In this document: positions 54,561 to 64,000 of the stretch, one piece after another
Position numbering within the stretch: position 1 is the stretch's first letter
Layout: each line of letters begins with the position of its first letter
NCBI GenBank assembly: GCA_964016885.1
Contig: OZ024745.1
Location: 57,288,001-57,352,000 of the forward strand
Length of the DNA stretch: 64,000 nucleotides
Reading direction: 5' to 3'
Source of the DNA: Eledone cirrhosa
Lineage: Eukaryota
Translations under genes and position numbers: made by a program
Notes under the pieces: generated by a model
Seen by the model: only the letters and a program-made list of their open reading frames with translations
Database searches by the model: none
Told to the model about the DNA's origin: nothing

Positions 54561-55842
54561 ATCCAGAATGTTACATGCAAATCTGCTGGATTTATTATGG
54601 GAGGTTATACCACACGCACACTGTATTCATATGAACTTGCACCCTTTTCTCTCGTAGCATGTAATGTACGTTTGGCTACTACTATAGAATCTCAAACACT
54701 ACTAGCGGTGTTACAACACAATACCTTCAGCATTCAGGAAGCGGGCAATCCCTGCAGTAATGCAGATGAAATCAAATGTTCGGAGTGCACACATAGAGTT
54801 AATAGCAGATAGTTTGGCTGTTTTGCTAGAGATACAAGTAAATATCTCATCTCCTGGACGACGTCGTTTCGTGTAATATAACTTTACAAATGCAGATATT
54901 GCGTCCGCAATGTTAGAAAATCACGGATATTTCCGTAATCGGGCTACTACACGTATCCAGCAGGGCTTCCCAAAATATACGATAGACCCGTATAGTGTGA
55001 GGTAGCCATCACTACTAGATAAGCTATATGGCAGTTCGCGGCATTTCTCCACTCTCCCTCTAATGAAAGGCGGAAGATTTTATCGCTGACTAAAACACGT
55101 GGTTTGGTAGTTGAATTCAAACAATGGAATTCGCGCCCAACAGAGCGCTCAACCGGCCTCTTGTATATGCGTATATATATATATATATAAATACACACAC
55201 ACTCACACACACACACATATACACACACACGCATATACACGCACACACACGCATATATATATATATATATATATATATATATATATTAGAAAGTGAGGTT
55301 TTTTTTACAAAATGAAAAATAACCGAGGTGTCCTACACGAGTGAAAGTATAAAGAAAAAGAGATGAAATCGAAAATGCAACTTTTTAAAAAAAATATATA
55401 TATTTATTTGGTTCCTTTACCGGTTTCGCAGTTCTTCTGCTTTTCAAAAGGTGAGTTGAGATGGAGGGTCTGTGGTTTTTCTCACATCTGGTTGGTCTCT
55501 GAATGTTACCTGTTTTATATGGAAAAAGTGGCTCGAAATGCCGCGTTTTTCGAGAAGTAATTTGATTGGTTTGTCAATAATTATAATAAATTTCGCGCCA
55601 GTTCGCGTTACAATAGTTCTTCAAATAAGAGGGGGGGGGGTTGTCGCAGGTTGTTTTTTCATATATGAGTGTTTGAATTTCTTTTTACTTGAAAAAAGAA
55701 GGCTCACGAAGGCTTTTTTTTGGTTGGTTATAAATGAAATTATGGCTGTCACGTGAACAAATTTTCATTAAATTTTTGTGCCCTTATTTGGAAATCAATT
55801 CTGTAGCCTTTTTAGAGAATTTTTTGATAAGTGAAAGATAAT

Positions 55843-56027
55843 TGTTTCTACTTTAGGCACAAGGCCAGCAATTACCCAGTGCATTACTGGTACTTTATTT
55901 TATCGACCCCGTAAGGATGAAAGGCAAAGTCAACCTCGGCGGGATTTGAACTCAGATTGTAAAGGGACGTAACTATGCTGGAAAGCATGGCGTCCGACCC
56001 TCTACCGATACTGCCAATCCACCGCCC
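55843..56027 (-). mobile_element. Full-length tRNA-derived SINE with 20-bp TSD, nested in the PLE
   Basis: TTTGATAAGTGAAAGATAAT at 55823-55842 and 56028-56047. Confidence 0.92.
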
Positions 56028-57843
56028 TTTGATAAGTGAAAGATAATGGTCAAGAGAAAGGGATGGGAGAATTGTTCTGGTTCAGTGAATATGGTTAGTT
56101 CGCTGGGGTGTCAGAATTCAGATTTTCTATTGAATAAAGAAAGTAAAGATATGTGTGTTTATTTGTGTGCTTGTGTGTGTGTGTGCGTGTGTGTGTGTGT
56201 GTGTTTGAATTTCTTTACTTTAAAAAAAGGTGGCTCACGAAGGCTTTTTTTTAATAAACGTGATTTGATTGGTTATAAATGAAATTTGGCTGTCACGTGA
56301 ACAAGTTTTCATTACATTTTTGCGCCCTTATTTGGAAAACTATTCTGTAGTCTTTATAGCGAATGTTATGACAATGGAAAGATAGTGGTCAAGAGAAATG
56401 GTATTGGGAGAATTGTTCTGGTTCAGTAAATATGGTTAGTTCGCTGGGGTGTCAGAGTTCAGATTTTCTATTGATGTGAAGATATGTATGTTTATTTGTG
56501 TGCTTGTGTGTGTGTATGTGTGAGTGTGTGTGTATGTGTGTGTGTGTGTGTATGTGTGTATTGGAAGATGATTCTATTAGTAGAAATGGGGGAGGGAGTT
56601 GTGTGTGTGTGTATATGGGTGTTATGTGTGTGTGTGCGAGTATGTTAAGATGGAGAGAATATATATTTTGTGTGTGTGTATATATTTGTGTGTAAAATTG
56701 ACTTCACAATGTTCCAGTCAGTTGAGTTCGCAAAAAATAAGTTTTGCTGGTAATTGGAAGTAGCAAACCTGTCACATTTTTTACCACGCTGAATATACCT
56801 GAAATATACGCTTCCGGTTTGACAGTATGTGGAAGGGTCATCTACAAAATATTTTGAAATTGAATTCTTTCTTAATTATATATCTTTTCAAAAGTCATCA
56901 GTATGGGTAGATTGACCAGTGTCGTTGACTAATTAAAGGTATTTAAAGATATATTAATTTTAAAATAATATCTTAATTTTAGACTGTCAGTTACATATAA
57001 CAAAACAGTTATCTCATTCCAACGGAATGGGATAACTATTTTGTTATATGTTTATGGAGAGAAACAGTTTAACATTTATTAAGTAAACATCCGTAACACA
57101 TTGTGATATTATTTTAAATTATTAGTCAAATTGCATGTCATGATACGTTACTATTTCTTCCCAAAAATATAAATTACAATATATCAGTAACACGTTTGTG
57201 ACAATACATGTCTTCTTCTTCTTCTTCTTCTTCTTCTTCTTCTTCTTCTTCTTCTTCTTCTTCTTCTTCTTCTTCTTCTGTTTCTTCTTCTTCTTCTTCT
57301 TCTTCTTCTTCTTCTTCTTCTTCTTCTTCTTCTTCTTCTTCTTCTTCTTCTTTTTCTCCCCCTCCTCCCCCTTATCCTCCTCCTTCTCCTCCCCCTTCTC
57401 CTCCTCATTCTCCTCCTTCTCCCCCTCCTCCTTCTTCTTCTTCTTCTTCTCCTCCTCCACCTCCTTCTTCTTCTTCTTCTTCTTCTTCTTTATCCTGATA
57501 TGGTCATGGGGGCAATGTCTTTAAACACTTCTTCCAGCGGGTCTTGTCAGAAGTAACAGTTTCTCACTGATTCAGCGGGATCTCCAATCGAGACGAACCG
57601 AGCTCATGGATGTTTCGCGGAAATTATCACGTGATTTTACTGTCAACAAAGGGGTAGTTAAATTATATATAATAAATGTAATGAGTTTTTCGAATATTAA
57701 TAATAACATTCGATTCGTTTGCAATTATGCTAATTGCAGGTCTGACTGATCACCCTGTCTGCTAATATGCAAATTAGGCCGATCAGTCACTGCGTATATT
57801 TGAAAATAGCATATATTTTCACTAGCTGCGACAGTTTGGTAGG

Positions 57844-57900
57844 TGAACAGTGAGCTGTACTGATGAAGCCCAGAAACATTAGTGTCTGCAGTTCTGTTCA
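57844..57900 (+). ncRNA. Hammerhead-like motif lacking stem II (family H); mirror 60802-60858 (-)
   Basis: Long stem I TGAACAG-T-GAGCTGTA / TGCAGTTCTGTTCA, CTGATGA, 6-nt linker AGCCCA, GAAACA-TTAG-TGT-C (GUC site). Confidence 0.65.
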
Positions 57901-61345: not shown

Positions 61346-61642
61346 AAAGAAGACGACGACGACAACGACCTCGACGACGACGACGACATGTATCGTCACC
61401 AACGTGTTGCTGATATATTGTAATTTATATTTTTGGAAAGAAATAGTAACGTATCATGACATGCAATTTGACTAATAATTTAAAATAATATCACGATGTT
61501 GACTTAATAAATGTTAAACTGTTTCTCTCCATAAACATACAACAAAAAAGTTATCCCATTCCGTTGGAATGAGATAACTGTTTTATTATATGTAACTGAC
61601 AGTCTAAAATTAAGATATTATTTTTTAATTAATATATCTTTA

Positions 61643-63066
61643 TATACAGGAACGATGTACTAGTTTCAAGCTTGTTAGCTATCATCAGCACCGTATACCC
61701 ATCTGCCAGATAGTTGAACGTTCGAAAGTATATACTTTCCTGTGTCAGTGTTGAACAAAAAGGTGACGTGGTTGCCTTAACACCGTATGGCATAAATTCA
61801 GGCTGTTCAGTTTGTTTACAAACGAACAAAGCGGCGTTATAATAGGCGTCCCCTAAACTGATGCGTGCATATATGTATGTGTACCTCTATGTATGTATAT
61901 ATATATATATATATATGTATATATATATATATATATATATATATATATATATATATATATATATATATATATATATATATATATATATATATATATATAT
62001 ATATATATGCATGCTACTGTACGTCTGTATACATATATGTATGTACGTATACATACATACTTACATTTAAGTAAGTGCCATACTAAGAGTGAGAAATGAA
62101 ATTTCGTTTTCATTTTATTTCAACTCATCATTTTCGGTATGCCTGACCGATTTAACTCACTCAATCTGCAAATTAGGCTGCTCAGCCGTTAATTTTCATA
62201 AGGAAAGTATATACTTTCGAACGTTCAACTATCTGGCAGATGGGTATACGGTGCTGATGATAGCTAACAAGCTTGAAACTAGTACATCGTTCCTGTGTCA
62301 GTGTTGAACAAAAAGGTGACCTGGTTGCCTTAACACCGTATGGCATAAATTCAGGCTGTTCAGTTTGTTTACAAACGAACAAAGCGGCGTTATAATAAGC
62401 GTCCGCTAAACTGATGCGTGCATATATGTATGTGTACCTGTATGTATATATATATATGTATATATATATATATATATATATATATATATATATATATATA
62501 TGCATGCTACTGTACGTCTGTATACATATATGTATGTACGTATACATACATACTTACATTTAAGTAAGTGCCATACTAAGAGTGAGAAATGAAATTTCAT
62601 TTTCATTTTATTTCAACTTATCGTTTTCGGTATGCCTGACCGATTTAACTCACTCAATATGCAAATTAGGCTGCTCAGCCGTTAATTTTCATAAGGAAAG
62701 TATATACTTTCGAACGTTCAACTATCTGGCAGATGGGTATACGGTGCTGATGATAGCTAACAAGCTTGAAACTAGTACATCGTTCCTGTGTCAGTGTTGA
62801 ACAAAAAGGTGACGTGGTTGCCTTAACTCCGTATGGCATAAATGCAGGCTGTTCAGTTTGTTTACAAACGAACAAAGTGGCGTTATAATAAGCGTCCGCT
62901 AAACTGATGCGTGCATATATGTATGTGTACCTGTATGTATATATATATATATATATATATATATATATATATATATATATATATATATATATATATATAT
63001 ATATATGTGCATGCTACTGTACGTCTGTATACATATCTGTATGTACGTATTCATACATACTTACAT
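61643..63066 (+). mobile_element. Retrozyme-like tandem array (family G), ~493-bp unit, 5' inversion, 14-bp TSD
   Basis: TTAATATATCTTTA at 61629-61642 and 63067-63080; inverted piece 61647-61740; direct units 61737-62290, 62291-62783, partial to 63066; absent from the mirror arm near 56950. Confidence 0.88.
62248..62290 (+). ncRNA. Canonical minimal type I hammerhead (family G); copies 62741-62783 (+) and 61652-61694 (-)
   Basis: ACGGTG-CTGATGA-TAGCT(AACA)AGCTT-GAAAC-TA-GT-A-CATCGT. Confidence 0.88.
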
Positions 63067-64000
63067 TTAATATATCTTTAAATACCTTTAAATAGTCAAC
63101 GACACTGGTCAATCTACCCATACTGATGACTTTTGAAAAGATGTATAATTAAGAAAGAATTCAATTTCGAAATATTATGTAGATGACCCTTCCACATACT
63201 GTCAAACCGGAAGCGTAGTTTTCAGGTATATTCAGCGTGGTACAAAATGTGACAGGTTTGCTACTTCCAATTATCAGCAAAACTTATTTTTTGCGAACTC
63301 AACTGACTGGAACATTGTGAAGTCAATTTTATGGATGAAGGGCGCAACGCGCAGCCCGAAATCAAAATTACGACATTACGATTGGCATTCAAATATCCTA
63401 ACCACAAATCCACTCGCTTTCGCTAAAAATTGCATTAAAAATGAATTAATTTCCATGCATACCTGTATATTTATTTATCAGAAATTTAATTATATCAAAT
63501 TAATTCTGAAGGAAAATAAGTAACAAATGTAGGTAGGTGTGTGTGTATGTATATATATATATATATATATATATATATATATATATATATATATATATAT
63601 ATATATATATATATATATATATATATATATATATATATGTTTGTATGTATGTGTGTGTGTGTATGTGTGTATGCACACGCACACATACATATATATATAT
63701 TTATATATTTCCTTTTGTAAACTATCACAAATGTCCATAATAAGCGAGATGCACCTCTCTCTCTCTCCGTATATATATGTATATATATAAAGAGAGAAAA
63801 AGAGATAAAGAAAGAGAGGGGGGGGTAAAGAAAGAAGGAAAGAAAAAAGAAAGAAAGAAAGAAAGAAAGGAAGAAAGGAAGAAAGATAGGGAGATACATT
63901 TTTATTTATCTATATCCATTATAGTGCTGATATTGCTCTTTGATGCTACTCTGTGTGATATCGACTTAAGAATCTATACAAAAAAAAATTAATTTATCTT

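What the first reader, a model, noticed from the sequence alone, without database searches (positions are those of the whole stretch)
55286..63330. A PLE insertion appears to have copied 1.3 kb of neighbouring genomic DNA into its loop
56694-58017 sits exactly between the two family E arms and is an inverted copy of 60688-63330 minus the family G insertion. It is the derived copy: it truncates the terminal repeat that is complete at 60676 and joins family E sequence through a GA microhomology. The copied DNA is a patchwork (RTE tail, family H element, other sequence), not family E. Inference: during integration synthesis switched to local DNA or a local transcript 3-5 kb away, creating an inverted segmental duplication. 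Arm divergence and the later TSD-flanked insertion rule out a read artefact.
Basis: partly seen in the sequence, partly recalled or inferred. Interest (0 to 1): 0.75.

Follow-up and report, generated by a model that had tools for sequence, protein, structure and literature searches.

The report
Penelope insertion bridged by neighbouring DNA
A jumping-gene insertion in an octopus-like genome holds, between its two mirror-image halves, a backwards 1.3-kb copy of nearby DNA, likely made while the insertion break was being closed; it is a real but rare scar of a kind already known from human LINE-1 elements.

Summary
Observation confirmed, with small corrections. 56693-58019 is an inverted copy (about 3% diverged) of 60686-63331 minus the later G insertion (14-bp TSD). 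It sits between two arms of family E, the 3' end of a Penelope-like element (RT + GIY-YIG). Both junctions have 2-bp microhomology and occur once in the genome. Both loop ends cut repeats that are intact at the source, so the loop is the derived copy. The arms share rare variants, so they come from one insertion. H really ends at 60643, not 60676, and the source likely lay about 0.7-1.9 kb away at the time, not 3-5 kb (F and G are younger). None of 171 other E loci shows a local copy at its junction, so this is a rare accident. Best reading: one new cDNA end folded back onto its own resected strand, copied 1.3 kb and joined the other cDNA. A local-RNA template or a later repair event are not excluded. 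The same kind of event is published for human L1, and this scan noted four similar PLE cases in other genomes (unchecked).

The parts
55253..55286 (.). (TA)n target, left side
   Evidence: other E copies also start after (TA)n
55287..56694 (-). Family E long arm: 3' UTR/pLTR of a Penelope-like element (RNA sense = minus strand), including the about 61-nt 'tail' 55287-55347
   Evidence: other copies continue into a GIY-YIG/RT ORF on this strand
55411..55455 (-). Minimal hammerhead-like motif in E (U3-A8 core variant read by eye; not called by Rfam)
   Evidence: folds stems I and II (z -0.54, not significant); core motif naming recalled
55843..56027 (-). SINE-like repeat inside E, flanked by a 20-bp direct repeat
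56693..58019 (-). Loop: inverted copy of 60686-63331 without G; TA microhomology at 56693-56694, GA at 58018-58019
58018..58260 (+). Family E short inverted arm (E positions 55348-55604), sharing rare variants with the long arm
58257..58374 (.). (TA)n target, right side
59015..60614 (.). Family F tandem/fold-back hammerhead element, young; separates target and source today
   Evidence: HH9 hits below gathering score; copies elsewhere 98.9-99.6% identical over the unit
60643..61035 (+). Family H fold-back mini-element at the source, intact end at 60643; loop starts inside it at 60686
61036..61387 (+). Old LINE 3' fragment plus (GAA)n/(GAC)n tail (RTE label recalled, not tested)
61388..61642 (+). 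Unique source segment, copied into the loop
61643..63066 (.). Family G tandem/fold-back insertion with 14-bp TSD, absent from the loop
63067..63413 (+). Source segment with an old dispersed repeat (63214-63413) that the loop cuts at 63330
   Evidence: L005 71% across the breakpoint, L006 67%

Best explanation
One Penelope-like insertion carries an inverted 1.3-kb copy of adjacent DNA between its two arms, likely made during integration when one new cDNA end folded back and copied the resected chromosome end. Shown: one donor for both arms, local source, derived status, 2-bp joins. Inferred steps: (1) both 3' ends of a cut (TA)n target primed reverse transcription on E RNA, at the two start sites 55287 and 55348, giving the usual fold-back pair of cDNAs; (2) instead of joining at once, the short cDNA (bottom strand, ending at E position 55604) annealed by 2 nt to its own single-stranded bottom strand about 0.7 kb back, inside H at 60686-60687; (3) a polymerase copied about 1.3 kb outward to 63330; (4) the new end was released and joined the long cDNA through TA. 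Fold-back on the same strand forces the inverted orientation that is seen. F, G and probably the microsatellite changes came later. No function is implied.
For: Geometry: the source lies on the short arm's own flank, and the copy reads away from the break, as same-strand fold-back predicts. Both arms lack a short segment carried by nearly all of 351 other motif matches, none of which has either arm's junction form, and both carry a G seen in 4 of 74 others: one donor. The 55287/55348 asymmetry is the family's normal insertion anatomy. A 2-bp overlap is the commonest join in ordinary E fold-backs (20 of 93; 47 of 93 at 0-2 bp). Age: arms 4/238 vs block about 29/1030, Fisher p=0.50; E private changes 10 of 1,342 sites, so the block does not look younger than E. 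No splicing and no ADAR-like pattern in the loop: 2 of 8 polarised H differences are loop-derived, and the four A>G differences not assigned to the source all have a 5' G. L1 precedent for self-annealing inverted duplication with 2-bp homology (bioRxiv 10.1101/2024.12.14.628481, passages; 10.1101/2022.05.18.492429, passage).
Against: The timing test is weak (few sites; 6 of 8 polarised H differences fall on the source side, so allelic variation or chance inflates the block's divergence). No empty-site allele or orthologue was seen. 2-bp microhomologies are weak evidence by themselves. The loop starts 7-10 nt from H's own short start site (60676-60679), which an RNA-template model explains better. 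The copy is much longer and farther than typical L1 templated insertions (under 250 bp, within 15 bp).
Confidence: 0.52

Rival explanations
1. Later repair: E first inserted as an ordinary fold-back; a later break inside it was resected and repaired by the same fold-back copying, with no role for the element's enzymes.
For: The junction anatomy would look the same; templated inverted duplications form at any double-strand break (PMC11724301, abstract only). This window is full of inverted repeats.
Against: A clearly later event should leave the block less diverged than the arms; it is not (2.8-3.1% vs 1.7%). With a 1.09-kb spacer, the arms as they stand are not a tight palindrome.
Confidence: 0.23
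2. RNA template: during integration the PLE reverse transcriptase jumped from E RNA onto a local, likely nascent, bottom-strand transcript running through the block and H, starting next to H's own start site, and copied 1.3 kb before joining the other cDNA.
For: The loop starts 7-10 nt from H's short start site, and H's hammerhead-like core lies on the bottom strand. E also holds foreign pieces of other mobile families: window 40094-40283 is a fragment of another PLE-like ORF found in many places. Co-insertion of local pre-mRNA is reported for L1 (passage).
Against: No intron loss and no ADAR-like signature. No host transcript is known here. The closeness to H's start site was noticed after the fact in a repeat-dense region.
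Confidence: 0.2
3. Assembly or read artefact, or a composite element that moved from elsewhere.
For: No read-derived contig bridging either junction was listed.
Against: About 3% divergence, G in one copy only, both versions of 56720-56836 in X1 contigs at depth 7.2 and 8.3, junctions unique in the genome, unique part only here.
Confidence: 0.05

Closest known systems
L1 insertions with local inverted duplication from self-annealing of a resected break end (bioRxiv 10.1101/2024.12.14.628481, passages; bioRxiv 10.1101/2022.05.18.492429, passage: 3-4 cases, 0.2-0.3% of somatic L1 insertions)
   Same: Inverted copy of DNA next to the target site, 2-bp microhomology, rare by-product of target-primed insertion.
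   Different: Here the element is a PLE, the event is fixed in an assembled animal genome, the primer is likely a second cDNA rather than the bare reciprocal end, and the copy is 1.3 kb starting about 0.7 kb away.
L1 templated insertions and twin priming (bioRxiv 10.1101/2024.08.27.596794, passages)
   Same: Two target ends each prime cDNA; non-element genomic templates are copied into the insertion.
   Different: L1 templates are typically under 250 bp and within 15 bp of the site; L1 twin-primed arms do not normally overlap, whereas E arms start 61 nt apart on the same terminus.
Host-DNA capture between pLTRs in Adineta vaga Penelope elements (PMC3846280, section 9 whole and passages)
   Same: Non-element DNA enclosed by PLE terminal repeats, including 0.9-1.5-kb spacers.
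   Different: Those are copies moved to new places or spacers of unstated origin; here the source is the insertion's own flank, in inverted orientation, at the junction of the inverted arm.
Inverted pLTR insertions with a one-sided tail in EN+ PLEs (PMC8557442 passages; PMC11167929 part 2 of 4)
   Same: Inverted truncated arm, tail at one end, AT-rich target, two reverse-transcription start sites.
   Different: Tail is about 61 nt here, against 30-40 bp described; ordinary E junctions have no foreign loop.

Membership tests
Endonuclease-bearing Penelope-like element (family E) | Single ORF with RT and C-terminal GIY-YIG endonuclease | tested here: met
   L153 ORF: RVT_1 E 1.4e-6 (just under the curated cut-off) and GIY-YIG E 6.5e-6; ORF continuous with E sequence in other copies. 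The window copy has no ORF.
Endonuclease-bearing Penelope-like element (family E) | pLTR / inverted 5' copy and one-sided tail | tested here: met
   123 of 162 pattern-anchored loci had a closing inverted arm call, one of them false; L120 shows inverted arm + pLTR + ORF + pLTR.
Endonuclease-bearing Penelope-like element (family E) | Hammerhead ribozyme in the pLTR | tested here: inconclusive
   Stems I and II fold at 55411-55455 minus (z -0.54); Rfam gave no hit there.
Neptune or Nematis clade | CX2-5CxxC linker before GIY-YIG (PMC8557442) | tested here: met
   CX4CxxC present in translated copies.
Neptune or Nematis clade | RT phylogeny | not tested
   No reference sequences at hand; clade left open.
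Locally templated inverted insertion at a retrotransposition site | Insert is an inverted copy of DNA next to the target and is the derived copy | tested here: met
Locally templated inverted insertion at a retrotransposition site | Short microhomology at the joins | tested here: met
   TA and GA; weak alone
Locally templated inverted insertion at a retrotransposition site | Formed in the same event as the insertion | tested here: inconclusive
   divergences compatible (Fisher p=0.50); no empty allele seen
RNA-templated (pre-mRNA) co-insertion | Splicing or RNA-editing marks in the copy | tested here: not met
   no intron loss, no ADAR-like cluster; absence does not exclude an unspliced, unedited RNA
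Mobile composite (transduction carried by E) | Same block inside E at other loci | tested here: not met

The most novel reading that the evidence does not exclude
The Penelope reverse transcriptase, mid-insertion, recognises the start signal of a neighbouring retrozyme-like element (H) in a nascent, chromatin-tethered transcript and copies that RNA into the junction, so old PLE relics act as local landing sites that direct kilobase inverted duplications.
Probability: 0.12. Interest if true: 0.62.

Novelty: new variant of a known kind. Interest (0 to 1): 0.3.

Why it matters
How PLEs close their insertions is not worked out. A loop copied from the insertion's own flank records an intermediate: two separate cDNA-tipped ends with kilobase-scale single-stranded DNA, as inferred for L1. 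It also shows that PLEs can make small inverted segmental duplications in a germ line. With 0 of 122 other closed E fold-backs showing it (upper 95% bound about 2.4%), it is a minor source of duplication and a single case says little about function.

Tried and rejected
Recurrent composite element: rejected. Survey for more local loops: none in 171 loci; the two other long foreign loops are pieces of other multi-copy mobile families (L098; window 40094-40283, with no E arm in 5 of 5 relatives tested). Junction-bridging contigs: none listed at either junction; both lie in high-copy repeats and the lists were cut, so this is uninformative. One X1 contig (56807-57159) has source-type letters at 5 sites yet spans the G site without G; it could be an allele without G or a merged path of both copies, so I do not use it. 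No RNA holder listed. ADAR signature: not found. A 7-nt AT-rich match near the right junction, offset by 7 nt, was judged chance. Rfam: nothing in E, H or the loop. Paper searches listed no report of a locally templated inverted loop in a PLE; one search returned nothing; subscription papers and bioRxiv supplements were not visible and may hold such cases. bioRxiv 10.64898/2026.07.22.740005 held none of the terms sought outside its references.
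Full report
Observation. A masked self-comparison and alignments show that 56693-58019 is the reverse complement of 60686-63331 with 61643-63066 (family G) missing. The copies differ at 29-32 of about 1,040 aligned non-microsatellite bases, by an 11-bp indel and in the length of a (TCT)n tract. G is flanked by a 14-bp direct repeat that is single in the loop, so G is later than the duplication or lies on another allele. 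The block is flanked by family E on both sides: 55287-56694 on the left and an inverted copy of 55348-55604 on the right. The joins carry TA (56693-56694) and GA (58018-58019) microhomologies. Each junction pattern matches once in the 3.0-Gb assembly at up to one mismatch, and the mostly unique 516 bp of the block match at length only here, twice (that search skips very common words).

Which copy is derived. Family H starts at 60643 (long form) or about 60676-60679 (short form) in 18 other copies; the loop stops at 60686, 43 nt short of the intact end at the source. At the other end an old dispersed repeat aligns across 63330 at the source (L005 71% over 63214-63413, L006 67%), and the loop cuts it. 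Loop and source H share 8 changes not seen in at least 95% of other copies and a deletion in the hammerhead-like stem absent from 22 other motif matches, so the loop came from this H copy. In contigs of run X1 both versions of 56720-56836 occur, one with 0 and one with the 4 source-type differences, at depth 7.2 and 8.3; X1 may be the sample of the assembly, so this argues against a read artefact but is not independent support. No listed contig bridged a junction.

What E is. Longer copies run from the E sequence into an ORF on the strand that is minus in the window; Pfam finds RVT_1 and GIY-YIG in that order, with a CX4CxxC linker of the kind described for Neptune and Nematis (PMC8557442, passages). 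So 55287 is the element's 3' end. At least 1,724 exact arm starts exist. The usual insertion is a fold-back with one arm starting at E position 1 and the other at position 61, both abutting (TA)n, which fits two reverse-transcription start sites and a one-sided tail (PMC11167929, part 2 of 4 read). The two arms here both lack a short segment present in nearly all of 351 other motif matches, none of which shows either arm's form, and share a G seen in 4 of 74 others; they differ at one other rare site. They therefore likely derive from one donor and one event.

Distance. F (59015-60614) has copies elsewhere at 98.9-99.6% over the unit, far closer than the two block copies, so it is likely younger. 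Removing F and G puts the source about 0.7 to 1.9 kb from the right target edge (arithmetic on window coordinates), not 3-5 kb.

Survey. I fetched 98 regions for the first 100 listed arm starts (two matches fell in regions already taken; L107 dropped as a duplicate of L106), 65 of 71 new starts from a second pattern and 9 long-arm copies, 10 kb each (3.5 kb on the anchored side). Of the 162 pattern-anchored loci, 110 joined directly, 13 had a gap of 12 nt or more and 39 had no closing arm within 6.5 kb; of the 9 long-arm copies 8 had none and 1 was a separate copy. The 13 gaps were 8 short pieces of 12-29 nt, 1 AT-rich tract, 2 SINEs inside E, 1 false closure (L223) and 1 other mobile element (L098). 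The test found the focal locus as a positive control and, among the 171, only L088 (a SINE in both arms) and L153 (a nested tandem array), neither a copy of flanking DNA. So 0 of 122 true closed fold-backs carry a local copy; sources beyond the fetched stretch would be missed. Ordinary joins overlap by 0-2 bp in 47 of 93 measured, like the two joins here.

Mechanism. Inferred: both target ends primed cDNA. On the bottom strand the sequence reads source (minus), spacer, (TA)n, short arm, source (plus), long arm. That is what results if the short arm's 3' end folds back onto its own single-stranded strand at 60686-60687, copies outward to 63330 and then joins the long cDNA. Such self-annealing inverted duplications with 2-bp homology are described at L1 insertions (bioRxiv 10.1101/2024.12.14.628481, passages), at 0.2-0.3% of somatic L1 insertions together with one pre-mRNA co-insertion (bioRxiv 10.1101/2022.05.18.492429, passage), and at yeast breaks (PMC11724301, abstract). 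Timing is compatible with one event (arms 4/238, block about 29/1030, p=0.50; E private changes 10/1,342) but the test is weak, and 6 of 8 polarised H differences are on the source side. An RNA template stays possible: the loop starts 7-10 nt from H's short start site, and E can hold pieces of other elements. There is no splicing or editing mark.

Comparison and verdict. It works like L1 locally templated insertions and belongs with them on every feature I could test except timing. It differs in element class, length and distance (L1 templates are typically under 250 bp and within 15 bp; bioRxiv 10.1101/2024.08.27.596794, passages). Host-DNA capture between PLE pLTRs is known (PMC3846280), though not described there as a local inverted copy in the passages I read. 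My five answered searches listed no PLE report of this exact form. This scan's notes list four similar PLE cases in other genomes (unchecked, not support). The labels RTE, SINE and the hammerhead core variant are recalled, not from a call; 'octopus-like' follows the scan's notes and the repeat content. Real, well-preserved, rare, and of a known kind: interest 0.3.

Noticed in passing
window 39949-40504: A second E fold-back whose 190-bp loop (40094-40283) is a fragment of another PLE-like ORF with many genomic copies, antisense to E's tail arm; not locally templated. Suggests a jump between different element RNAs.
   Followed up: partly
L098:3559-4940: A different hammerhead-bearing fold-back family fills an E junction and ends at E's internal (TA)n; probably a nested insertion.
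   Followed up: partly
E positions 200-225 (window about 55486-55500): 107 of 186 arm ends in direct E fold-backs fall in this 25-nt bin: a strong stop or joining hotspot just upstream of the hammerhead-like motif in RNA sense.
   Followed up: no
window 55843-56027; L088, L130, L236, L237: A SINE-like repeat sits at the same site inside several E copies, in L088 in both arms at 90% identity: a carrier subfamily or a repeated target site.
   Followed up: no
window 20525-28880 and 32178-35917: Very young large inverted repeats (99.7-99.9%) around ORF fragments of another PLE-type family (22970-24997, 33685-34512); Pfam gave no hit for the first at E 0.01.
   Followed up: no
window 61629-63080: Family G fold-back has a clean 14-bp TSD in non-microsatellite DNA, unlike the (TA)n-targeted E, F and H.
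   Followed up: no
L121:2950-4402, L096:3431-3961 (coordinates on the strand of the anchored arm): Flanks on the two sides of some E fold-backs are inverted copies of each other; probably E landed inside older fold-back elements.
   Followed up: partly
window 8169-12949: A near-intact LINE ORF of about 900 aa on the minus strand with a 1.3-kb tandem duplicate of its 3' part (97%).
   Followed up: no
window 59223-59294, 59689-59760, 60267-60338: Rfam HH9 hammerhead matches (36.5 bits, below gathering score) in each unit of family F.
   Followed up: no
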